Positions 1,419 through 12,464 of a stretch of 12,464 nucleotides of DNA are shown here, one piece after another. Both the position numbers and the translations under genes were made by a program. This DNA is from Candidatus Nanobsidianus stetteri (GTDB lineage Archaea > Nanobdellota > Nanobdellia > Nanobdellales > Nanobdellaceae). The first letter of the stretch is position 1; each line of letters opens with the position of its first letter. Under the pieces are notes generated by a model. It did no database searches. It had not been told where the DNA came from and worked only from the letters and a program-made list of their open reading frames with translations. The stretch spans positions 1-12,464 of the forward strand of contig NZ_QEFP02000008.1 in assembly GCF_003086415.1 (NCBI RefSeq), read 5' to 3'.

Positions 1419-3131
1419 TTATTTGTGCATATATATTAAGTAATCTTTTTCTCTCTTAAAGAATCCATACCTTATTCCATGGATTACTTCCCCATCTTTT
1501 GTTAATTCTAATACATATTTTTCTGCAATTGCATTTATTATACCATCTTTTTCCCATACTTTTATATTAATCTTATATTCTTCAGGTACCCATTGAACAA
1601 TTTTTGCATTCAATTTTCTTGCATCTTCCATACTATCTGATAAATATTTAGCAACAATATAATCTTCCCTTTTATCTATTATTTCAATATTAAATCCTTC
1701 AAACAATCTTAAATATTTATTATTTATATCATTTATATCTATATAAAATATGTTAGATTTTATTATAAATTCCCTATATCCCAAATCTACTTCTGGATGA
1801 TTTTTAACTTTTATTATTTTATTTGATGGTAGATCATTTATTATAACTTTCACAGGATTTCTTATTATAAAAAATCTCTTAGCCTTTTTATCATATATTT
1901 CTCTATTATATGTGTATATTTTATTCCAATCAATAACTACATCTACAGGATTTGGCCCTATTTCTAAAATATATTTTCTTATTGCCTCTCTATCAATTCC
2001 CCTTCTTCTCAATCCTCTTAATGTTGGTAAAAATGGATCATCCCATCCAGATATTTTTCCTTCCTTTATTAATTTCCTTATTTCAGATTTATGCAATGGT
2101 AAATCTTTTACTAATAGAGCCCCATAATTTATTATTGTCGGAAATTCCCAACCAAAATATTCATAAATATATTTTTGTTTATATGAATTTACTTCATGTT
2201 CTTTCATTCTCAGAACATGTGTTATTCCCATTAAATGATCATCTATAGATACAGAAAAATTATATGTAGGCCATAACCAATATCTTTCTACATAATTTTT
2301 TCCATATTTTCTTAATAAATATGGATGTGGATTTTTATTTGGATCAACAATTCTAAATGCAATCCAATCTCTTACAGATGGATTTGGATGATTTAGATCT
2401 GTTTTAATTCTTATTACTGCTTTTTCTTCATCATAATATCCATTTAACATTTTTTCAAATTGTTCTAAATGCCATTCTGGTTCTTTCAATCTATATTCTG
2501 TAGGAATTCCTTCTGCCCTATATTTTGATATTATTTCTTTTGGAGAAAGATCAACATATGCAAATCCCTTTTCAATTAATTCTTTTATATATTTATAATA
2601 TATATCTAATCTTTCAGATTGTATATAAAATTCATCTACCTTATCATTTATTAACCATTCAACATCCTCTTTTATTGAATCATATACATCAGGATCTGGT
2701 TTTTTAACCTTTGGATCTGTATCCTCAATCCTTAATATAAATTTTCCTTTATACATTTTTGCATATTCATAATTCAATATAATTGCTCTTGCATGACCTA
2801 TATGTAAATATCCTGAAGGATTTGGGGCAAATCTTGTCTTAACTTTACCTTCTACTGCATTCTTTAATTCTGGTAATCCTTTTCTTTCCTCTTTTTTCTT
2901 TTCTTCTAATAATTCTGGATATTCTTTTAATAATATATTATAAGCTTCTTCTCTAGATATATTAGACAAATTATTTATTTCTTCTTTGACTTTTGGGATT
3001 ATTTCCTTTATGTTTTTCTTTAAATCAGGATTTTCATATACTATTTTTGATACAACAGAATTTAAATCCACATTTCCATACTTATATTTATTATATAATA
3101 CCCATTTTTTTATTAATTTATTTATATCCAT
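1419..3131 (-). CDS. gltX: Glutamyl-tRNA synthetase, archaeal/eukaryotic type
   Basis: 570 aa. It has the class I HIGH signature in RFAPNPSGYLHIGHARAIILNYEYAKMYKGKFILRIEDTDP, followed by WLWPTYNFSVSIDDHLMGITHVLR and an archaeal-type C-terminal anticodon-binding region. The start codon lies 1 nt after the spt4 stop. Confidence 0.95.
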   Translation of the reverse strand: MDINKLIKKWVLYNKYKYGNVDLNSVVSKIVYENPDLKKNIKEIIPKVKEEINNLSNISREEAYNILLKEYPELLEEKKKEERKGLPELKNAVEGKVKTRFAPNPSGYLHIGHARAIILNYEYAKMYKGKFILRIEDTDPKVKKPDPDVYDSIKEDVEWLINDKVDEFYIQSERLDIYYKYIKELIEKGFAYVDLSPKEIISKYRAEGIPTEYRLKEPEWHLEQFEKMLNGYYDEEKAVIRIKTDLNHPNPSVRDWIAFRIVDPNKNPHPYLLRKYGKNYVERYWLWPTYNFSVSIDDHLMGITHVLRMKEHEVNSYKQKYIYEYFGWEFPTIINYGALLVKDLPLHKSEIRKLIKEGKISGWDDPFLPTLRGLRRRGIDREAIRKYILEIGPNPVDVVIDWNKIYTYNREIYDKKAKRFFIIRNPVKVIINDLPSNKIIKVKNHPEVDLGYREFIIKSNIFYIDINDINNKYLRLFEGFNIEIIDKREDYIVAKYLSDSMEDARKLNAKIVQWVPEEYKINIKVWEKDGIINAIAEKYVLELTKDGEVIHGIRYGFFKREKDYLIYMHK

Positions 3132-3132
3132 C

Positions 3133-3336
3133 TTATAATACTCTTATTGCCCACTTACCCTCTTTTAAATTTAATTTTTTAGAGAATTCAGAATTTTCTT
3201 GATTTACAATTATAATAAATCCAGAATAATCTTCAGATAAATCTGTAGAACCACAATATGGACATCTATCTACATCTTTATCAATTATTGCCTTACAGTT
3301 TCTACATACTTTTCTTTTTGGTTTTCTATATGCCAT
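3133..3336 (-). CDS. spt4: Transcription elongation factor Spt4 (RpoE'')
   Basis: 67 aa. It has a zinc ribbon (CRNC...CPYCGS) followed by S.DYSGFIIIVNQENSEFSKKLNLKEGKWAIRV, the archaeal Spt4 pattern. Its start shares 1 nt with the rpo7 stop, which is the conserved rpoE'-spt4 pairing. Confidence 0.85.
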   Translation of the reverse strand: MAYRKPKRKVCRNCKAIIDKDVDRCPYCGSTDLSEDYSGFIIIVNQENSEFSKKLNLKEGKWAIRVL

Positions 3337-3881
3337 TATTTACCAGATTTTTTCTTTTGTTCAAGCCATTCCAATTTTCCCAATCCTGGTTGTTTCATTG
3401 TCATTGCAATCCTTACATTAGATACACCTTTATAACTTACTGTAACTATTCTTGCCTTTACCATATCATTTACCTTCAATACTTTTCTACTATTCTTTCC
3501 AATTAAAGCTTCTCTTCCAGAAACTGATACCTCGTCATCCATTATTTGAGAAATATGAACCAATGCATCTATGGGTCCTATATTTATAAATGCTCCAAAT
3601 TCTGTTATAGATGATACAAATCCATATGTTAGTTCAGAAATATTTGGAAAATACGAAATTGCAGTAAATTTTACCTTATAATATACTCCTCCATCTTCAA
3701 AAACCATTATACCTTCAGATATTTCATCTATGGATTTTATTGTTACAATTATCCCATATTCTTTTCCACCCATTCCAACATAATTATTTAATAGTATCTT
3801 TTCTATCATTTCATTTACATTATCTGTTATTTCATTTGGTGGTACTCTTACTACATCATATATTTGAACTTCATAAAACAT
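3336..3881 (-). CDS. rpo7: DNA-directed RNA polymerase subunit Rpo7 (RpoE')
   Basis: 181 aa. The N-terminal MFYEVQIYDVVRVPPNE... is followed by an S1 domain (FGAFINIGPIDALVHISQIMDDEV...VKARIVTVS...RIAMTMKQPGLGKLEW), matching archaeal subunit E'/Rpb7. Confidence 0.9.
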   Translation of the reverse strand: MFYEVQIYDVVRVPPNEITDNVNEMIEKILLNNYVGMGGKEYGIIVTIKSIDEISEGIMVFEDGGVYYKVKFTAISYFPNISELTYGFVSSITEFGAFINIGPIDALVHISQIMDDEVSVSGREALIGKNSRKVLKVNDMVKARIVTVSYKGVSNVRIAMTMKQPGLGKLEWLEQKKKSGK

Positions 3882-3949
3882 TATTAGAATGATTTTATAA
3901 ATTTTTATAAATCTTTGTAATTTTTATTTTTTTGCAATAAAAAAATATT

Positions 3950-5341
3950 ATGAGTATAATGTTAAATAATTTAATTAAATTCTATCAAAATAATAGAGAG
4001 ATTTTAGAGGATATGGTAAAAATTTCTCAGAATAGAGAGGTTGGATATCTATTATCAAATAATAATTTTGGACATAGACCATCAAAAATAGAAACAGAAG
4101 ATGATATAATAAATTATATTAAAAAAGGTGCCATTTCATTTCATATATCGATTGAGAGATGGATTGATATAAATATTTTGAGTGAAAAAGTTTCAAAAAA
4201 GGATTTGAATGAATATAGATTGGGATGGGATTTTATAATAGATATAGATGCAAAATCTTTAGATCTATCAAAAGTTACTGCAAGAATTATTGTTGATTAT
4301 TTAAAAGAAAAAAATATTAATCCAATATATATTAAATATTCTGGGGGAAAAGGTTTTCATATAGCAATTCCATGGGAAATATTTCCAGAAACAATAAATA
4401 TATATAAAAAAGATAATCTTATAGAAGAAGAGACAAGAAAATTATTCCCAGATCTTGCAAGAATATTAGCATTATATATATCAAAAGAAATAGAAGAGAA
4501 ATTAAAGAAAATAATATTATTAAAATTTAGTGAAGAGGAATTAAAAAATTATGGAGTAAATGATATAGAAAGATTTAATCCATATGATATAATTGAAATA
4601 GATACAATATTAATATCATCGAGACATTTAATTAGATGTTTATATTCAATAAATGAAAAAACTGGAAATTTATCTATACCAATAAAGGAAAATTATATAG
4701 AAAAATTAAATCCTGAAGATTCTAATATAAATAATTATTCATATGAAGGTATACCATATTTAACTGAAGATTTAGAAAGAAAAGAATCTAAAGAATTAAA
4801 AGATCTAATTAAAGATTCATTATTATGGAAAATAAAAAATGAAGTTGAAGTAATAAAATTTAGCAGATTAGCTGAAAATTATAAAAATCAGGAAGGAATT
4901 GAAGAAACAAAAAGAGATGTAGAAGAAATAAAGAAAAGAAAGATAGAAATAAATGAAGATTTATTTCCTCCATGTATAAAAAATATATTAAATAATAAAG
5001 AAATGGATGATGGAAGGAAAAGATCATTATTTATATTAATAAATTTCTTTGCAAATATTGGATGGGATTGGGATAAAATTGAAAGATATATAAAAGAATG
5101 GAATGAAAGTTTACAGGATCCCTTAAAGGATAGATACATAGAATATCAATTAGAATGGCATAAGAAATTATATAAAAATAATAAAAAATATTTAACTCCG
5201 AATTGCAATAATGAAATATATTATAAGGATATTGGAATATGTACTCCAGATAATATTTGCTCATTAATTAAAAATCCTTTATCATATCCAATTAAAAAAA
5301 TTAAAAGTACAAAATCTTCTCAGGATTCTCAAAATAATTAA
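3950..5341 (+). CDS. priS: DNA primase, single-chain fusion of the PriS catalytic (AEP) domain and a PriL C-terminal Fe-S domain
   Basis: AEP motif I is WDFIIDIDA (aa 93-101). Motif II is SGGKGFHIAIPW (aa 131-142). Motif III is IDTILISSRHLIRCLYSINEKTGNLSIPI (aa 217-245). The C-terminal third carries the PriL-CTD hallmark FPPCIKNIL...GRKRSLFILINFFANIGW and four Cys (aa 342, 419, 431, 437) suited to a 4Fe-4S cluster. Confidence 0.85.
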   Translation: MSIMLNNLIKFYQNNREILEDMVKISQNREVGYLLSNNNFGHRPSKIETEDDIINYIKKGAISFHISIERWIDINILSEKVSKKDLNEYRLGWDFIIDIDAKSLDLSKVTARIIVDYLKEKNINPIYIKYSGGKGFHIAIPWEIFPETINIYKKDNLIEEETRKLFPDLARILALYISKEIEEKLKKIILLKFSEEELKNYGVNDIERFNPYDIIEIDTILISSRHLIRCLYSINEKTGNLSIPIKENYIEKLNPEDSNINNYSYEGIPYLTEDLERKESKELKDLIKDSLLWKIKNEVEVIKFSRLAENYKNQEGIEETKRDVEEIKKRKIEINEDLFPPCIKNILNNKEMDDGRKRSLFILINFFANIGWDWDKIERYIKEWNESLQDPLKDRYIEYQLEWHKKLYKNNKKYLTPNCNNEIYYKDIGICTPDNICSLIKNPLSYPIKKIKSTKSSQDSQNN

Positions 5342-5687
5342 TATAAAACTTTATTTCATCAATACGCTTTCTTAAATCTTCAACTTCTCTTACTTTAAAA
5401 TATTTAAAGAATCTTCTCCTTTCAATATCATTTATAATTATTCCATCAGATTCTAGTAAATTTCTTACATATTTATATAAAATCCTTCCCTTATTATCAT
5501 TATCTGTTAATATAATTGCTTCTCTATAATTTAGAAATACACTCTCATCCTTTCTTAATTCATATATTGTATATACATTATTAAATCCAAATTCTCTTAA
5601 TACTTCCTTATCTCTCTTACCTTCTACAACTATAAGTGAATCCTTTTTCTCCCTTAGCCTATGTAAAAAAGATATTATCTTATACAT
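5301..5687 (-). CDS. Small Toprim-domain protein (RNase M5 / DnaG-like Toprim fold)
   Basis: 128 aa. The conserved Toprim glutamate is in LIVVEGKRDKEVL and the DxD motif is in AIILTDNDNKGR, with typical spacing. The last 41 nt overlap the 3' end of the convergent primase gene. Confidence 0.7.
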   Translation of the reverse strand: MYKIISFLHRLREKKDSLIVVEGKRDKEVLREFGFNNVYTIYELRKDESVFLNYREAIILTDNDNKGRILYKYVRNLLESDGIIINDIERRRFFKYFKVREVEDLRKRIDEIKFYINYFENPEKILYF

Positions 5688-5731
5688 TATAAAAAGTTTA
5701 ACTTTTAATTATTAAAGTTTTTTTATTTATT

Positions 5732-8221: not shown

Positions 8222-8949
8222 CTTACAGTAATTAAAGGTTTGTCTTCGCCTATTACAACCGAATAATCAAATATTGTTTCTTCCTTTTTATTATTATCCA
8301 TATTTATATATTCTATAAATCTTGTATGTCCAAATGGTTTTCTAAATATTTTTATATTTTCTAATCTTCCAATTGTACTTACTTTTGCTCCATAGAATAT
8401 ATATATTAAATTTCCCTTATTCATTTTTATTATCTTTTCTATCTTATTTTCTTTTGTATTAAATAGAATACTATCTCCTGTTTTTATATCTTTATCATCA
8501 ATTATAAAATTCCTTCCATCAATTCCAGTAACCTGTATTTTTCCTCCCTTAACAAGATTTTTCCTTACAATTTTTATTATTTTCAAATCTTTTTCTTGTT
8601 CTGGAATTTCAATTAATTTTAATTTTAAATTATTAGACATAACAACCCTATAATTTTTATTTAAATCTTTAATTGATATAACATCAAATAATCCAACGCT
8701 ATATCCTAAATCTTTTATCTTCTTATTATTTACCAAAACTTTTTCATTTCTTAATAAATATTTTGCTTCCTTCTTATTTTTTACAATTTTTAAATAATCT
8801 CTTAACCATAATAATATTGGCATACTATATTCAAACTTATATCCATTTGTTGATGGTCTAATAATCCAATAATATTTCTTTCTACTTATTGGCCATGTTT
8901 TTGGTATTGTAATATTTCTTAGATGCCTTTTATTGGAAACATGAGCCAT
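8218..8949 (-). CDS. rps4e: Ribosomal protein S4e (eS4)
   Basis: 243 aa. The N-terminus KRHLRNITIPKTWPISRKKYYWIIRPSTNGYKFEYSMPILLWLRDYLKIVKNKKEAKYLL...VLVNNKKIKDLGYSVGLFDVISI matches the eS4 family. Confidence 0.95.
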   Translation of the reverse strand: MAHVSNKRHLRNITIPKTWPISRKKYYWIIRPSTNGYKFEYSMPILLWLRDYLKIVKNKKEAKYLLRNEKVLVNNKKIKDLGYSVGLFDVISIKDLNKNYRVVMSNNLKLKLIEIPEQEKDLKIIKIVRKNLVKGGKIQVTGIDGRNFIIDDKDIKTGDSILFNTKENKIEKIIKMNKGNLIYIFYGAKVSTIGRLENIKIFRKPFGHTRFIEYINMDNNKKEETIFDYSVVIGEDKPLITVR

Positions 8950-8986: not shown

Positions 8987-9520
8987 TTATTTAAATTTTT
9001 TGTTCAATTCGGTTACTTTTGCCAATTCATCTTCCTTTACTGAGAAATTATTTACCAATTGATTTACTAATTCTTCTATTTTATTTTCTTCAATATTTTT
9101 TGATTTCATTTTTCTTTTTATGATTTCTATTCTCTTTTTATCCTTTAAATTCAGCCTTAATATTAATAATTTTGAACTATGAATTGGTCTATAAACTTCT
9201 CTATTTGCCTTATTTGTAAATTTAATATTATCTATATATACTTTATATCTTTTTCTATCTATATAGATTACAAATCCTTCAGTATTTCTATATTTACCTC
9301 TTAAAACTTTAACATAATCTCCAACCCTCAAAGGTAAAGAATTTATTTTAATTAAATTCTTTATATCTTTTGATAACATTGAAGAGATTATCTTACCCCT
9401 AATATGTAAAGGAGCATTTATTATATATTTTCTTTGTTTTCTAGAATTTTTAGAAGATTTCCATGATGAACTCCAATCTTTATAATCAATATTTTTTATT
9501 TTTAGAACCATTTTATACAA
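8987..9520 (-). CDS. rpl24: Ribosomal protein L24 (uL24) with a C-terminal K/E-rich extension
   Basis: SRKQRKYIINAPLHIRGKIISSMLSKDIK...LPLRVGDYVKVLRGKYRNTEGFVIYIDRKRYKVYIDNI...REVYRPIHSSKLLILRL is the KOW-containing archaeal uL24 core. About 45 extra residues follow it. The start is ambiguous: 9520 overlaps L14 by 8 nt, while M4 at 9511 gives no overlap. Confidence 0.9.
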   Translation of the reverse strand: MYKMVLKIKNIDYKDWSSSWKSSKNSRKQRKYIINAPLHIRGKIISSMLSKDIKNLIKINSLPLRVGDYVKVLRGKYRNTEGFVIYIDRKRYKVYIDNIKFTNKANREVYRPIHSSKLLILRLNLKDKKRIEIIKRKMKSKNIEENKIEELVNQLVNNFSVKEDELAKVTELNKKFK

Positions 9521-9917
9521 TTATACTTGCAATTTTTCCAATTTCTGGCCATCTTTCAACAACTTCTCTTGCCACTGGTCCTCTGATAATTGTACCTGCC
9601 GGTGTTCCGGTTTTTTCATCTTTTATAATTACGCAAGCATTATCTTCAAACTTTATTCTTGTACCATCTTTTCTTCTATATTCTTTTCTTTGTCTAATTA
9701 TAACAGCTTTCATAACCTTTCCAACTAATGATAAATCTCCATCTATTATTGATACAGAAACCATATCAGCAACTCCTGCTCTAGCATATCTTCTCTTTAC
9801 ACCTTTATATCCAACCACAGAAATTACCTTTGCTAATTTTGCCTTTGAATTATCTGCAACCTTTAAAATCGTACCAACAGTAATTCCCCTTGTTACTTTT
9901 GCACTAATTGGCTTCAT
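9513..9917 (-). CDS. rpl14: Ribosomal protein L14 (uL14)
   Basis: 134 aa. GTILKVADNSKAKLAKVISV...ARAGVADMVSVSI...GKVMKAVIIRQRKEYRRKDGTRIKFEDNACVII...GTIIRGPVAREVVERWPEIGKIASIIV is canonical uL14. There is a 4-nt overlap with S17. Confidence 0.95.
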   Translation of the reverse strand: MKPISAKVTRGITVGTILKVADNSKAKLAKVISVVGYKGVKRRYARAGVADMVSVSIIDGDLSLVGKVMKAVIIRQRKEYRRKDGTRIKFEDNACVIIKDEKTGTPAGTIIRGPVAREVVERWPEIGKIASIIV

Positions 9918-10249: not shown

Positions 10250-10293
10250 TTTATGATTAAATTATAAATAGATTTAAAAATAATATTTCTAGA

Positions 10294-10347
10294 GGGATGA
10301 TGATGGATCAACGACCTGAATAGTGATGATTGATGGGCAAACTGAAA
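10294..10347 (+). ncRNA. C/D box sRNA (2'-O-methylation guide)
   Basis: All four boxes are canonical with archaeal spacing. The order is: C box ATGATGA (10297-10303); 12-nt guide TGGATCAACGAC; D' CTGA (10316-10319); 3-nt loop ATA; C' GTGATGA (10323-10329); 12-nt guide TTGATGGGCAAA; D CTGA (10342-10345). This is a GC-richer island in an AT-rich intergenic gap. A TATA-like TTATAAATA lies about 25-30 nt upstream. The exact ends are not determinable. Confidence 0.85.
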
Positions 10348-10349
10348 AT

Positions 10350-11282
10350 TTATAAAATTTTTAATAATAGTTCTAATCCTTCTTTAAGATAATCTTCATT
10401 TACTTTATCAATAGTATCTGCTTCTGAATGGTAGAATTTTATCCAATCATTATTAGATTCTGATATCTGTATAGATTTTTCATATAAATATTCTGACATT
10501 ATTGGAAATGCTTCTCTAATATATTCTTTTGTTAATATTGGCTTTGAATGTCCAAACATATCATATACAATAATCTTTTCGCTTTTTTCTAATATTTCTT
10601 TATATTCATATTCAAAAACTCTATAACCATATCCCCAATAATATGGTTTATCATATGATAATTCTTCACAACCTGAAAATACTATTAGATTTTCTTTAAG
10701 ATTTATTTTATTATTTATTATTGCATATAATAAGGTTGCTGTTCCTGAAGAATTATCTACAGTTCCATTAAATACTGTATCGAAATGAGTAAAAATTATA
10801 TTTTTTGGATTTTTTATATTTCCAATTAATATATTTTCATTTTTTATTAACTTTCTTTTTACATTAACATAAACCTTTATTTCTTCTGAATTTATAACTT
10901 TAATTAAATCTGATTTTTTTATATTTATTACTGGAAAATCATAGAAAATTACTCCAGAATATGCATCATAATACTGATTATAATTTATATGTGGTACACT
11001 TATTTCTTGCTTTATATTTTGACTTGAATATATATTTTTCTCTTCAAAATATCCAGAAACAAAAGAATTTGCCTTTCCAATTATTTTTTCTCCATTATCT
11101 AAAATTATATATGATCCTTCATCAAAAGGTATAGAAACATAAAAATATTGATCAAAAAAATCTATTCCAACTTTCTCCAAATTTTCTTTTATGTACTTAA
11201 TTGTTTTATTTATAGCTTCTTCATTATTCCTTGGAGAAAACTTTTCTAAATCTTTGATTATATCTATTATTTTATATTCCAT
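10350..11282 (-). CDS. M28-family zinc metallopeptidase (aminopeptidase-like)
   Basis: 310 aa. The five M28 metal and catalytic positions are recognisable in order: THFDTV (H), GTVDNSSGTATLL (D in the DNxSG motif), FSGCEEL (EE), IVYDMFGH (D), FYHSEADTIDKV (H). The start overlaps the stop of the upstream 335-aa ORF by 11 nt. Confidence 0.75.
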   Translation of the reverse strand: MEYKIIDIIKDLEKFSPRNNEEAINKTIKYIKENLEKVGIDFFDQYFYVSIPFDEGSYIILDNGEKIIGKANSFVSGYFEEKNIYSSQNIKQEISVPHINYNQYYDAYSGVIFYDFPVINIKKSDLIKVINSEEIKVYVNVKRKLIKNENILIGNIKNPKNIIFTHFDTVFNGTVDNSSGTATLLYAIINNKINLKENLIVFSGCEELSYDKPYYWGYGYRVFEYEYKEILEKSEKIIVYDMFGHSKPILTKEYIREAFPIMSEYLYEKSIQISESNNDWIKFYHSEADTIDKVNEDYLKEGLELLLKIL

Positions 11283-11286
11283 ATAT
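11224..11286. repeat. Direct repeat copy A (63 bp), covering the start codon, first 19 codons and 4 nt upstream of the peptidase gene
   Basis: TTATTCCTTGGAGAAAACTTTTCTAAATCTTTGATTATATCTATTATTTTATATTCCATATAT is identical at all 63 positions to 12402-12464. The left flanks diverge immediately (a at 11223, t at 12401). Confidence 0.95.
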
Positions 11287-12279
11287 ATATCTTATAGTAT
11301 TTATAATATAAGGAGTTATATTTTTACTTATAAATTTTACATAATTTTCTTCACCAATTATTCTTCTTTTTATTAGTTTTTGCATATATAGTTCTAATGG
11401 TAGTATATCATATCCTGTTTTATTCTTTGCTTCCTTATAGAGACGTCTTGTCTTTTTACCTGCTGATGGTTTTCTAGGGTCTTCTTCGAGTAATACATAT
11501 CCACTTCCTGACAATAATGCTAAAGCTATATATGGGTTCATTTCCATTTTATATTTCTTACTTTCTTCTTTATAAATATGACTTGCATCGTATATCCTAA
11601 ATCTTAATTGTTTGTCGTTATATTCGAAAGATAATTTATATCCAGATATTTTATATTCAACTTTATTTGCTATCTTTATTCCATTTTTAAATTCCTTATT
11701 CACTAATTCTATCTTATCTTCAAATTCCTCTATTTTATAATTATTAATTTCAAAAATACGCTTAGATACTCCACCTATATAATATAATGTTGCTAATCCC
11801 CAGAAGTCTAATATATTTACTATACCATTAGTTACTTTTCCTCTATTTCTTAAATAATTCAGAGATTCATTCATATATGTTAATTCAGTTTCTTCCGCCA
11901 TTTCACTTATTTTATTGACATCTAGATATACATCTCTTATTATTTTAATATTTTTCTTCAATTGAGATTTTGATTCAACTGCTATATTATATCGAGATTT
12001 GCTATATAATATTTGAGGTCTAACAAATATTTTCTTTTTTTGATTGTAAAAAGAAAATTTATCATCTCCCCACTGTAGGATATCTAAAATTACATTATTT
12101 ACTTCATATTCATATTTATCTATTGTATTTATTATCCCTTTAATATGCAATAATGCTAATATTGTTTCTATATTGTATGGTGCTATTGGCCTTGCAAACA
12201 TAAACTTTAACTCTCCATCTTTTCCTGCTTTTTGTAAAATCTTTTCTAGACTTCTCCTTATATATTTATAAAACCCCAC
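11272..12279 (-). CDS. Hypothetical protein (335 aa), orphan ORF inside the repeat-bracketed unit
   Basis: Uninterrupted 1008-nt ORF. It can only start at GTG 12279, because an in-frame TAA lies at 12286-12288, or at the first ATG (M27, 12201). No confident family assignment. There are three weak LAGLIDADG-like helices (LALLHIKGII, GLATLYYIGGV, ALALLSGSGYV) that lack the acidic residues. Confidence 0.6.
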   Translation of the reverse strand: MGFYKYIRRSLEKILQKAGKDGELKFMFARPIAPYNIETILALLHIKGIINTIDKYEYEVNNVILDILQWGDDKFSFYNQKKKIFVRPQILYSKSRYNIAVESKSQLKKNIKIIRDVYLDVNKISEMAEETELTYMNESLNYLRNRGKVTNGIVNILDFWGLATLYYIGGVSKRIFEINNYKIEEFEDKIELVNKEFKNGIKIANKVEYKISGYKLSFEYNDKQLRFRIYDASHIYKEESKKYKMEMNPYIALALLSGSGYVLLEEDPRKPSAGKKTRRLYKEAKNKTGYDILPLELYMQKLIKRRIIGEENYVKFISKNITPYIINTIRYIYGI

Positions 12280-12401
12280 CCCGCCTTATCTCAGAATGGT
12301 AGGTGTCCATAGTAGTATGATTTTCATAAAAACTTTTAAAAATTTTATTGAACAATTACTATACTTTCTCAGCTATCGCCAGTACCCATACAGACGTAAG
12401 T
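11287..12401. mobile_element. Candidate small inserted element or remnant between the direct repeats (alternatives: tandem duplication or assembly artefact)
   Basis: The segment is bracketed by perfect direct repeats of a gene 5' end. It carries one orphan ORF and a compositionally distinct 122-nt non-coding end. No recognisable integrase or transposase motifs were seen, so confidence is low. Confidence 0.25.
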
Positions 12402-12460
12402 TTATTCCTTGGAGAAAACTTTTCTAAATCTTTGATTATATCTATTATTTTATATTCCAT
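12359..12460 (-). pseudogene. Duplicated 5' fragment of the M28 peptidase gene fused to unrelated sequence
   Basis: The minus strand from ATG 12460 reads MEYKIIDIIKDLEKFSPRN, identical to peptidase codons 1-19. It then diverges to KLTSVWVLAIAEKV and stops (TAG), giving 33 aa in total. Confidence 0.6.
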
Positions 12461-12464
12461 ATAT
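12402..12464. repeat. Direct repeat copy B (at least 63 bp, truncated by the window end)
   Basis: Identical to 11224-11286, at an offset of 1178 bp. The match runs to the last base of the window, so its true right-hand extent is unknown. Confidence 0.95.

What the first reader, a model, noticed from the sequence alone, without database searches (positions are those of the whole stretch)
11224..12464. Perfect 63-bp direct repeat duplicates the peptidase gene start and brackets an 1178-bp unit
Positions 11224-11286 and 12402-12464 are identical at 63 of 63 positions. The repeat contains 4 nt of upstream sequence, the ATG and the first 19 codons of the M28 peptidase. Copy A continues into the intact gene. 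Copy B continues into unrelated sequence and stops after 33 codons. The only content between the copies is an orphan 335-aa ORF and a 122-nt non-coding stretch of unusual composition. The orphan ORF's stop overlaps the peptidase start. In a genome this compact, an exact duplication of this size is unexpected and must be recent or maintained. I see three readings. First, it could be site-specific integration of a small element, or the remnant of a larger one, into the 5' end of the gene, with att-site duplication restoring the gene. Second, it could be a tandem duplication whose second unit lies beyond the window. Third, it could be an assembly join of two strain variants at a contig end.
Basis: partly seen in the sequence, partly recalled or inferred. 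Interest (0 to 1): 0.7.

Follow-up and report, generated by a model that had tools for sequence, protein, structure and literature searches.

The report
Tandem gene-array junction in a nanoarchaeon
The perfect 63-bp repeat is the seam between two head-to-tail copies of a fast-evolving gene that sits between the 5S rRNA gene and a peptidase gene in a tiny symbiotic archaeon; it comes from ordinary tandem duplication plus gene conversion, not from an inserted mobile element.

Summary
Positions 11224-11286 equal 12402-12464 at 63 of 63 bases, against a chance maximum of 15-23 nt. Copy B ends exactly at the window end.

The window is from a nanoarchaeote related to Ca. Nanobsidianus stetteri. The 335-aa "orphan" ORF is not an orphan. 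It belongs to a lineage-restricted family of more than 120 clusters, always found between the 5S rRNA gene and the M28-like peptidase, in 0 to 3 tandem copies.

The 122-nt spacer has two parts:
- a decayed copy of 5S rRNA nt ~62-115 (window 12401-12347)
- the conserved promoter/leader of the family gene (window 12346-12280)

The 1178-bp unit therefore reads [5S 3' remnant – leader – ORF – first 59 nt of the peptidase]. This is the signature of a tandem segmental duplication.

An independent metagenome contig from a close strain (L009) crosses the same junction. It shows 5S, then three paralogs, then the peptidase. Sequence diverges immediately beyond the 63 bp.

Neighbouring paralog DNA is only 78% identical, and the 5S remnants are old. 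Copies A and B also share strain-specific variants. The perfect identity is therefore best explained by gene conversion. The window probably ends there because the assembly broke at the repeat.

There is no integrase, no viral relatives and no empty site. Interest is modest. The fast-evolving family gene (dN/dS 0.5-1.1) is the more interesting part.

The parts
10350..11282 (-). M28-like peptidase gene (310 aa), intact. Its first 59 nt lie inside repeat copy A.
   Evidence: ORF list. Pfam PF04389 scores 23.3 bits against a cut-off of 21.3. Relatives are 85-98% aa identical at the same position. dN/dS is 0.06-0.16.
11224..11286 (-). Repeat copy A. It holds the last 4 codons and stop of the family ORF, the overlapping peptidase ATG, and peptidase codons 1-19 plus 2 nt.
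11272..12279 (-). Family ORF, 335 aa (the third paralog, 'P3', of the array as seen in L009). It belongs to a lineage-restricted, fast-evolving, copy-number-variable family and has a confidently predicted fold with no match in the structure libraries searched (Foldseek against PDB and BFVD only).
   Evidence: At least 123 homologous clusters. 100% aa identical to P0001, DDW05_01020. AF2 pLDDT 89.2. No match in PDB or BFVD. dN/dS is 0.5-1.1.
12280..12346 (-). Conserved A/T-rich leader and putative archaeal promoter of the family ORF: AAAATTTTTAAAAGTTTTTATGAAAATCATACTACTATGGAC... The same sequence follows the real 5S rRNA gene in relatives.
   Evidence: Alignment of all unit junctions and of the true 5S downstream regions. 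Promoter function is inferred, not shown.
12347..12401 (-). Decayed copy of the 3' part of the 5S rRNA gene (about nt 62-115). It accounts for the 'unusual composition' of the spacer.
   Evidence: BLASTN against the Nst1 5S gene: 5S nt 64-98 match window 12398-12364 at 86%, E = 6.6e-6. Alignments. Intact 5S genes confirmed by Rfam in relatives. No Rfam hit in the window itself, consistent with a truncated pseudogene fragment.
12402..12464 (-). Repeat copy B. It is a duplicated peptidase 5' fragment marking the 3' end of the next unit upstream. By homology, the paralog beyond the window ends inside it. It is fused to the 5S remnant at 12401/12402.
   Evidence: The same junction is crossed by independent contig L009.

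Best explanation
The 63-bp repeat is the unit boundary of a chromosomal tandem array of a lineage-specific gene family in a Nanobsidianus/Nanopusillus-type nanoarchaeote.

The ancestral order, seen in single-copy relatives, is 5S rRNA – family ORF – M28-like peptidase – S17/L14/L24 operon. A tandem segmental duplication had one breakpoint in the 5S gene (about nt 62) and the other in the 5' part of the peptidase gene. It produced units of [5S 3' remnant – promoter/leader – ORF – peptidase 5' fragment]. The array later grew to three units in this lineage. The window holds the last unit plus the tail of the one before it.

The paralogs and the 5S remnants have diverged, so the duplication is old. 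The peptidase fragment (copy B) is kept identical to the functional gene start 1178 bp away by gene conversion. This step is inferred from concerted variants and from the contrast with the flanks.

The same direct repeats are the substrate for unequal crossing-over that adds or removes units. The Nst1 arrangement is the predicted product of a B x A deletion.

The window stops exactly at the far edge of the repeat, most probably because the assembler could not resolve it.
For: Shown:
1. The repeat is exact and far beyond chance.
2. The spacer next to copy B aligns to 5S rRNA nt ~62-115 and to the sequence downstream of the true 5S gene.
3. Rfam finds an intact 5S gene directly upstream of the family ORF in L001, L002, L003, L005, L006, L007, L009, L010, L011, L014 and L015.
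4. Copy number between 5S and the peptidase varies:
- 1 copy in L002, L003 and L005
- 2 copies in Nst1 (L001) and L011
- 3 copies in L009
- 0 copies in L006 and L007
.
5. Every inter-paralog spacer has the same build, a peptidase 5' fragment followed by a 5S 3' remnant with the same 5S breakpoint.
6. A 29-nt probe across the B/5S junction hits one independent metagenome contig, L009. That contig continues 3.5 kb upstream through two more paralogs to the real 5S gene.
7. In L009, copies A and B are 62/63 identical, while the 306 nt just upstream are 78% identical. The two 5S-remnant spacers are about 64% identical.
8. Evolution is concerted. The window has GGAATAT...TTTAGAA in both copies, and L009 has GGACTAT...TTTGGAA in both copies.
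9. Conversion tracts also exist between the two Nst1 paralogs: 272 nt at 94% and 63 nt at 100%.
10. The QEFH MAG is broken at this locus into two contigs. One ends inside paralog 1. The other starts 8 nt from the junction.
Against: - The sequence beyond 12464 in the window's own genome was not seen. What lies there is inferred from L009, which is about 1-4% diverged.
- The evidence for concerted evolution rests on only two variable sites.
- The junction in the window and in L009 junction 2 carries peptidase codons 1-20. The junctions in Nst1, L011 and L009 junction 1 carry codons ~1-10 plus ~25-41. It is therefore unresolved whether there was one ancestral junction with later deletions or two separate events at nearly the same 5S position.
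- Perfect identity of copy B could be partly an assembler consensus effect at a contig end.
Confidence: 0.8

Rival explanations
1. Site-specific integration of a small mobile element (or its remnant) into the 5' end of the peptidase gene, with the 63 bp as duplicated att sites and the 335-aa ORF as its recombinase.
For: Exact direct repeats bracket a single ORF of integrase-like size, and the target gene is restored. The repeated reuse of nearly the same 5S breakpoint in two junction types is slightly odd for random duplication.
Against: - No recombinase or any other domain in Pfam, PHROGs, NCBIfam or PADLOC.
- The confident AF2 model has no match to recombinases or to anything in PDB or BFVD.
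- No relatives in IMG/VR.
- The gene is at the same chromosomal position in all relatives, including single-copy genomes without any repeat and Nanobdella aerobiophila.
- The spacer is a piece of the adjacent chromosomal 5S gene, and base composition equals that of the host.
Confidence: 0.03
2. A plain, very recent tandem duplication in which the perfect identity simply continues for hundreds of bp beyond the window.
For: The repeat is truncated by the window end, so its true length in this genome is unknown. Arrays at this locus expand and contract.
Against: - In L009, which has the same junction and a 99%-identical last paralog, the upstream unit is a different paralog (64% aa), and identity ends at the base matching 12465.
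- The 5S remnant beside copy B is heavily decayed relative to the real 5S gene, so the junction is old.
- The related assembly QEFH has its contig end 8 nt from the 12401/12402 junction, and the window ends at the far edge of the repeat.
Confidence: 0.07
3. An assembly artefact. Copy B is a k-mer overlap or a chimeric join of strain variants at a contig end, and does not exist as such in any one genome.
For: - The repeat ends exactly at the last base of the window.
- 63 is a common k-mer size (my own knowledge, not tested).
- Two other assemblies fragment here.
- Many family members sit on 1-4 kb contigs.
Against: The junction peptidase-fragment::5S-remnant lies internal to the window, 63 nt from the end. 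It is reproduced base for base over a 29-nt probe in an independent 6-kb metagenome contig that spans it on both sides. Homologous junctions exist in Nst1 and L011.
Confidence: 0.06
4. The peptidase 5' fragment downstream of each paralog is kept identical by selection for a function, such as translational coupling, a leader peptide or a terminator, rather than by gene conversion.
For: The family ORF's conserved C-terminus (...IYGI*) overlaps the ATG in nearly all members. Copy B retains an intact ATG and a 33-codon ORF.
Against: In the other junction type (Nst1, L011, L009 junction 1) the fragment has internal deletions and substitutions, so it is not generally constrained. Selection would not explain why strain-specific variants are shared by A and B.
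Confidence: 0.04

Closest known systems
Tandem segmental duplication / paralog arrays homogenised by gene conversion and resized by unequal crossing-over (concerted evolution, as in rRNA operons, tuf genes and bacterial surface-protein arrays)
   Same: - Head-to-tail units.
- A junction built from fragments of the two flanking chromosomal genes.
- Copy-number polymorphism among strains.
- Short tracts kept identical while the rest diverges.
- Strain-specific variants shared by both copies.
   Different: - The array sits in a ~0.6-Mb reduced genome of an obligate ectosymbiont, where duplications are rare.
- One breakpoint lies inside a 5S rRNA gene.
- The amplified gene diverges fast (dN/dS about 0.5-1.1) while only 63 bp of hitch-hiking peptidase sequence stays identical.
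Integrative elements that target the 3' part of RNA genes (tRNA/tmRNA-targeting archaeal and bacterial integrases, SSV- and pNOB8-type)
   Same: A displaced 3' fragment of a stable-RNA gene lies next to a ~335-aa ORF, and direct repeats flank the unit.
   Different: - No integrase or any recombinase signature.
- The ORF is a vertically inherited, syntenic chromosomal gene.
- The repeated segment that is identical is the peptidase fragment, not the RNA-gene fragment.
- No empty site and no viral or plasmid relatives.
Terminal k-mer overlaps and contig breaks at repeats in de Bruijn-graph assemblies
   Same: The repeat ends at the last base of the window, and related assemblies break within a few nt of the same place.
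   Different: The junction itself is internal and is independently confirmed. The artefact, if any, explains only where the sequence stops.

Membership tests
Integrated mobile element with att duplication | Encodes a site-specific recombinase (tyrosine/serine integrase) or transposase | tested here: not met
   No hit in Pfam, PHROGs, NCBIfam or PADLOC for the ORF or for 38 homologs. The PDB profile search gave only a weak winged-helix hit, E = 0.04. Foldseek against PDB and BFVD found nothing at E <= 1e-3.
Integrated mobile element with att duplication | Relatives show an empty site lacking the element, with patchy non-syntenic distribution | tested here: not met
   In every locus retrieved that carries a family ORF, it lies between 5S and the peptidase (or S17 where the peptidase is absent). 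This includes single-copy genomes with no repeat and Nanobdella aerobiophila. It is absent from IMG/VR.
Integrated mobile element with att duplication | Direct repeats flank the element | tested here: met
   63/63 identical repeats. They are equally expected for a tandem duplication.
Tandem segmental duplication / gene array | Head-to-tail units with paralogous content | tested here: met
   L009 has 3 paralogs, and L001 and L011 have 2, all on the same strand with the same spacer build.
Tandem segmental duplication / gene array | A novel junction joins the distal end of the unit (peptidase 5' part) to its proximal end (5S 3' part) | tested here: met
   Window 12402/12401: peptidase nt 59 is fused to 5S nt ~62. 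The same junction occurs in L009.
Tandem segmental duplication / gene array | A further unit is present upstream in the same molecule as the window | not testable with these tools
   The window ends at 12464 and the source contig was not found. This is inferred from L009, and from L010 plus L008 of the QEFH MAG.
Concerted evolution by gene conversion | Copies within a genome are more alike than orthologous copies between genomes, and more alike than the flanking paralogous DNA | tested here: met
   Two strain-specific variants are shared by A and B in the window and in L009. Identity is 62-63/63 against 78% in the adjacent 306 nt. The sample is small (2 sites, 2 genomes).
5S rRNA gene (Rfam RF00001) | A full-length match to the covariance model at the gathering score | tested here: not met
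   No RF00001 hit in the window even at E <= 10. Only nt ~62-115 are present, at 86% over the best 35 nt. It is a truncated pseudogene fragment, not a 5S gene.
Peptidase family M28 (Pfam PF04389) | A score above Pfam's gathering threshold | tested here: met
   23.3 bits against a cut-off of 21.3, E = 5.8e-5, covering profile positions 16-102 of 193. This is marginal. Catalytic residues were not checked.
Assembly artefact at a contig end | The junction is not reproducible in independent data | tested here: not met
   Independent contig Ga0081473_142721 spans the junction. Whether 12464 is a contig end could not be checked.

The most novel reading that the evidence does not exclude
The family ORF may be a diversifying, copy-number-variable determinant of host or virus interaction in Nanoarchaeota. 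The protein is cytoplasmic and probably DNA-binding, with a winged-helix-like core and a fold that has no match in PDB or BFVD. Under this reading, the conserved flanks of each unit (5S remnant plus leader on one side, peptidase 5' fragment on the other) act as homology handles. These handles would allow whole alleles to be swapped, added or deleted between strains. That would explain why the last paralog is nearly identical in three strains whose flanking genes differ by 1-4%.
Probability: 0.2. Interest if true: 0.55.

Novelty: new member of a known kind. Interest (0 to 1): 0.3.

Why it matters
For the repeat itself the result matters little. It is an ordinary footprint of tandem duplication and gene conversion, and it warns that this locus breaks short-read assemblies of nanoarchaeal genomes.

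The by-product is more useful. In genomes of about 0.6 Mb that have shed almost everything dispensable, one lineage-specific gene next to the 5S rRNA and ribosomal-protein operon behaves differently:
- It is amplified up to three-fold.
- It varies from 0 to 3 copies between strains.
- It evolves with dN/dS near 1 while staying intact.
- It has a confidently predicted fold without a match in PDB or BFVD.

Such behaviour is typical of genes in an arms race (host recognition, virus defence or counter-defence). This makes it a candidate for the poorly understood specificity of nanoarchaeote-host associations.

Tried and rejected
- **tRNA or split-tRNA half in the GC-richer spacer.** ARAGORN found none, and Rfam at E <= 10 gave only noise.
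- **Intron or homing-endonuclease idea.** No LAGLIDADG or other domain was found.
- **SSV-type integrase idea, suggested by the 335-aa size.** No support.
- **Exact-sequence look-ups of the window's two proteins.** These failed. The 335-aa ORF's database twin, P0001, was found on QEFH01000005.1, probably because the GTG start is translated differently. The window's exact 310-aa peptidase is not on record. The copy on that contig is 97.7% identical.
- **Literature.** No paper mentions Nst1_294 or Nst1_295, and Jarett et al. 2018 (PMC6142677) does not mention tandem duplication, 5S rRNA or hypervariability.
- **Bacterial sigma-70 promoter scan.** Uninformative for an archaeon: 12 sites found against 11.2 expected.
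- **History of the two junction types.** I considered deriving the window-type junction from the Nst1-type by a template switch or deletion at the GGAATA microhomology present at peptidase codons 18-19 and 38-39. This is plausible but not demonstrable from the data.
Full report
**1. Check of the observation**

Positions 11224-11286 and 12402-12464 are identical at 63 of 63 positions, with a start-to-start spacing of 1178 nt. The window has 24.3% G+C. Its next-longest exact direct repeat is 15 nt. In 100 first-order Markov simulations the longest repeat averaged 15.9 nt and never exceeded 23 nt. The repeat is therefore far beyond chance.

All relevant genes lie on the minus strand:
- a 310-aa peptidase at 10350-11282
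- a 335-aa ORF at 11272-12279, whose stop overlaps the peptidase ATG

Copy B opens a 33-codon reading frame that leaves peptidase sequence after codon 19. The spacer 12280-12401 is 122 nt and somewhat richer in G+C (0.30-0.32 against about 0.22). One important detail is that copy B ends at the very last base of the window. The length of 63 bp is therefore a lower bound for this genome.

**2. The organism**

Several features identify a nanoarchaeote:
- a fused PriS-PriL primase
- SepF
- the archaeal S17-L14-L24-S4e-L5-L6 ribosomal-protein block
- a C/D-box sRNA

The peptidase finds 85-96% identical genes in Ca. Nanobsidianus stetteri Nst1 and in several Ca. Nanopusillus MAGs.

**3. The ORF is not an orphan**

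The ORF has at least 123 homologous 90%-identity clusters, all from Nanobsidianus/Nanopusillus-type sequences. Among them are two adjacent genes of Nst1, Nst1_294 and Nst1_295. An exhaustive profile search of 1.84 billion cluster representatives found only 14 proteins, so the family is lineage-restricted.

Every member for which I could obtain context lies at the same place, directly downstream of the 5S rRNA gene and upstream of the peptidase (or of S17 where the peptidase is absent). This holds even in the complete genome of Nanobdella aerobiophila, AP019769. The 5S genes were confirmed with Rfam at the gathering score.

The number of family ORFs between 5S and the peptidase varies between genomes:

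| Copies | Loci |
|---|---|
| 1 | L002, L003, L005 |
| 2 | Nst1 (L001), L011 |
| 3 | L009 |
| 0 | L006, L007 (peptidase also truncated) |

**4. What the 122-nt spacer is**

BLASTN with the Nst1 5S gene matches window 12398-12364 to 5S nt 64-98 at 86% identity. Alignment of all inter-paralog spacers with the true 5S genes shows that each spacer has three parts:
- a fragment of the peptidase 5' end
- a decayed copy of 5S rRNA from about nt 62 to its 3' end
- the same A/T-rich sequence that follows the real 5S gene and precedes the first paralog, AAAATTTTTAAAAGTTTTTATGAAAAT.ATACTACTATGGAC. I read this as the promoter/leader of the family gene (inference).

In window coordinates the 5S remnant is 12401-12347 and the leader is 12346-12280. 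Rfam does not call the remnant, as expected for half of a decayed 5S gene. In this very A+T-rich genome the G+C of the 5S fragment explains the "unusual composition".

The 1178-bp unit is thus [5S 3' remnant – leader – ORF – peptidase nt 1-59]. A junction that joins the distal end of a chromosomal segment to its proximal end is the signature of a tandem segmental duplication.

**5. What lies beyond the window**

A 29-nt probe across the 12402/12401 junction found exactly one metagenome contig, Ga0081473_142721 (L009, 6069 bp). It comes from a close strain: the last paralog is 99% aa identical and the peptidase 97%. L009 spans the whole locus:

| Feature | L009 coordinates |
|---|---|
| 5S rRNA | 1026-1140 |
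| Paralog 1 | 1208-2206 |
| Junction 1 | between paralogs 1 and 2 |
| Paralog 2 (401 aa) | 2355-3560 |
| Junction 2 (the window's junction) | between paralogs 2 and 3 |
| Paralog 3 | 3731-4738 |
| Peptidase | 4728-5660 |
| C/D sRNA | 5663-5717 (-) |

Upstream of copy B, L009 reads ...GGAAAT|ATATATGG, while copy A of the window reads ...GATATAT|ATATATGG. If the window's genome resembles L009, identity ends exactly at base 12465.

The related MAG GCA_003086475.1 is broken at this locus into two contigs. QEFH01000027 ends inside paralog 1. QEFH01000005 starts 8 nt from the junction. I therefore infer that the window stops where it does because the assembly could not pass the repeat. The junction itself is real, because an independent contig crosses it.

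**6. Age of the duplication and why 63 bp are perfect**

Several lines of evidence show that the duplication is old:
- In L009, paralogs 2 and 3 are 64% identical in protein.
- The 306 nt immediately upstream of the repeat are 78% identical.
- The two 5S-remnant spacers are about 64% identical.
- The remnant is far from the real 5S sequence.

Against this background the peptidase fragment is 62/63 identical in L009 and 63/63 in the window. At a background identity of 78%, a value of 62/63 or better has a probability of about 3e-6 (my own binomial calculation from the numbers).

The two sites at which the window and L009 differ within the repeat (GGAATAT against GGACTAT, TTTAGAA against TTTGGAA) carry the same state in both copies of each genome. 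This is concerted evolution and points to gene conversion between copies A and B. The evidence is small, at two sites in two genomes.

Conversion is active elsewhere in the array. Nst1_294 and Nst1_295 share tracts of 272 nt at 94% and 63 nt at 100%.

The same repeats are substrates for unequal crossing-over. Nst1 lacks the third unit, and its second paralog overlaps the true peptidase start directly. That is the product expected from recombination between B and A. This last point is inference.

**7. Two junction types**

In Nst1, L011 and L009 junction 1, the peptidase fragment contains roughly codons 1-10 plus 25-41. In the window and L009 junction 2 it contains codons 1-20. The 5S breakpoint is the same within about 3 nt.

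There are two possible histories: one ancestral junction (peptidase nt ~1-124 fused to 5S nt ~62) that suffered different internal deletions, or two separate events. The hexamer GGAATA occurs at both peptidase positions (codons 18-19 and 38-39) and could have mediated a deletion or a conversion end-point. I cannot decide between these histories.

**8. Tests of the mobile-element reading**

The ORF and 38 homologs have no hit in Pfam, PHROGs, NCBIfam or PADLOC. A PDB profile search gave only a marginal winged-helix hit, MJ223 at E = 0.04 covering residues 75-164.

No relative exists in IMG/VR viral contigs. Together with strict synteny and host-like composition, this rejects the integration model.

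**9. What the family gene looks like in evolution**

Pairwise Nei-Gojobori dN/dS for family ORFs is 0.5-1.1. For example, the window against L011 paralog 2 gives dS 0.118, dN 0.126 and a ratio of 1.06. The adjacent peptidase in the same genome pairs gives 0.06-0.16.

The ORFs remain intact in more than 120 clusters. They have 24 invariant columns and a confident fold. They are therefore real genes under a mixture of constraint and either relaxed or diversifying selection. I could not run site models.

Conversely, the last paralog is almost identical between the window, L008 and L009 (1 and 7 differences in 1008 nt), while the flanking genes differ by about 1.2% and about 4%. This hints at a recent spread of this allele among strains (inference).

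**10. Verdict**

The mechanism is an old tandem duplication of a chromosomal segment bounded by the 5S rRNA gene and the peptidase gene. The array later expanded, and the peptidase fragment is homogenised by gene conversion. An assembly break at the repeat explains where the window stops.

This is a new instance of a well-known kind of genome dynamics, so interest in the repeat as such is low. The amplified, fast-evolving family with no fold match in PDB or BFVD is the part worth following up.

Noticed in passing
window 10293-10347 (+): A C/D-box sRNA candidate lies between the S17 gene and the peptidase gene. It scores 34.8 bits against Rfam sR2, below the gathering score of 42. Boxes C, D', C' and D are visible. 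The orthologous site in L009 scores 39.7 bits.
   Followed up: partly
window 3950-5341 (+): A single 463-aa protein carries both the primase small-subunit and large-subunit Pfam domains. This fused PriS-PriL arrangement is known from Nanoarchaeota (my own knowledge) and helped to place the window taxonomically.
   Followed up: no
L004 1-~2000 (NZ_JBBHKR010000075.1, labelled Stygiolobus sp. CP850M): The contig is nanoarchaeal by gene content, although it is filed under the host's name. A CRISPR array of at least 34 copies of a 24-nt repeat (GTCGAAATAAGGAAGAACTGAAAG, 57-60-nt period) runs to the contig end. It abuts the last 52 codons of a truncated family ORF just upstream of the peptidase.
   Followed up: partly
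L006 9837-10276; L007 6606-6963; L015-L017: The locus also undergoes deletions.
- In L006 the family ORF's first ~10 codons are fused in frame to peptidase codon ~219 (MEDGIEFYGY|EYKEILEKS...).
- In L007 only a peptidase C-terminal remnant is left.
- In the P0117 clade the peptidase is absent and the family ORF is followed by S17.
.
   Followed up: partly
window 11272-12279 compared with L008 115-1122 and L009 3731-4738: The last paralog is far more similar between strains than its flanks. It has 1 and 7 differences in 1008 nt, with dS 0 and 0.016. The neighbouring peptidase has dS 0.06 and 0.145. This suggests a recent spread or exchange of this allele.
   Followed up: partly
P0014 (Nst1_295), P0022 (L009 2355-3560): Long family members carry an N-terminal extension made of 2-4 repeats of a ~25-residue motif (...S/DGYKKISLDEI...). 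This motif is present once in the short members such as the window's ORF.
   Followed up: no
L001 8141-8412 vs 9471-9742, and 8433-8495 vs 9757-9819: The two tandem paralogs of Nst1 contain tracts of 272 nt at 94% identity and 63 nt at 100% identity, inside genes that are otherwise about 75% identical in protein. These look like mosaic gene conversion within the array.
   Followed up: partly
window 12299-12276 (-): A G+C-rich hairpin followed by a T-run (CCATTCTGAGATAAGGCGGGGTGG GGTTTT) overlaps the GTG start of the family ORF. It is the only terminator-like site in the region, against 0.2 expected. Its meaning is unknown. It may simply reflect the G-rich start region conserved in the family.
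   Followed up: no
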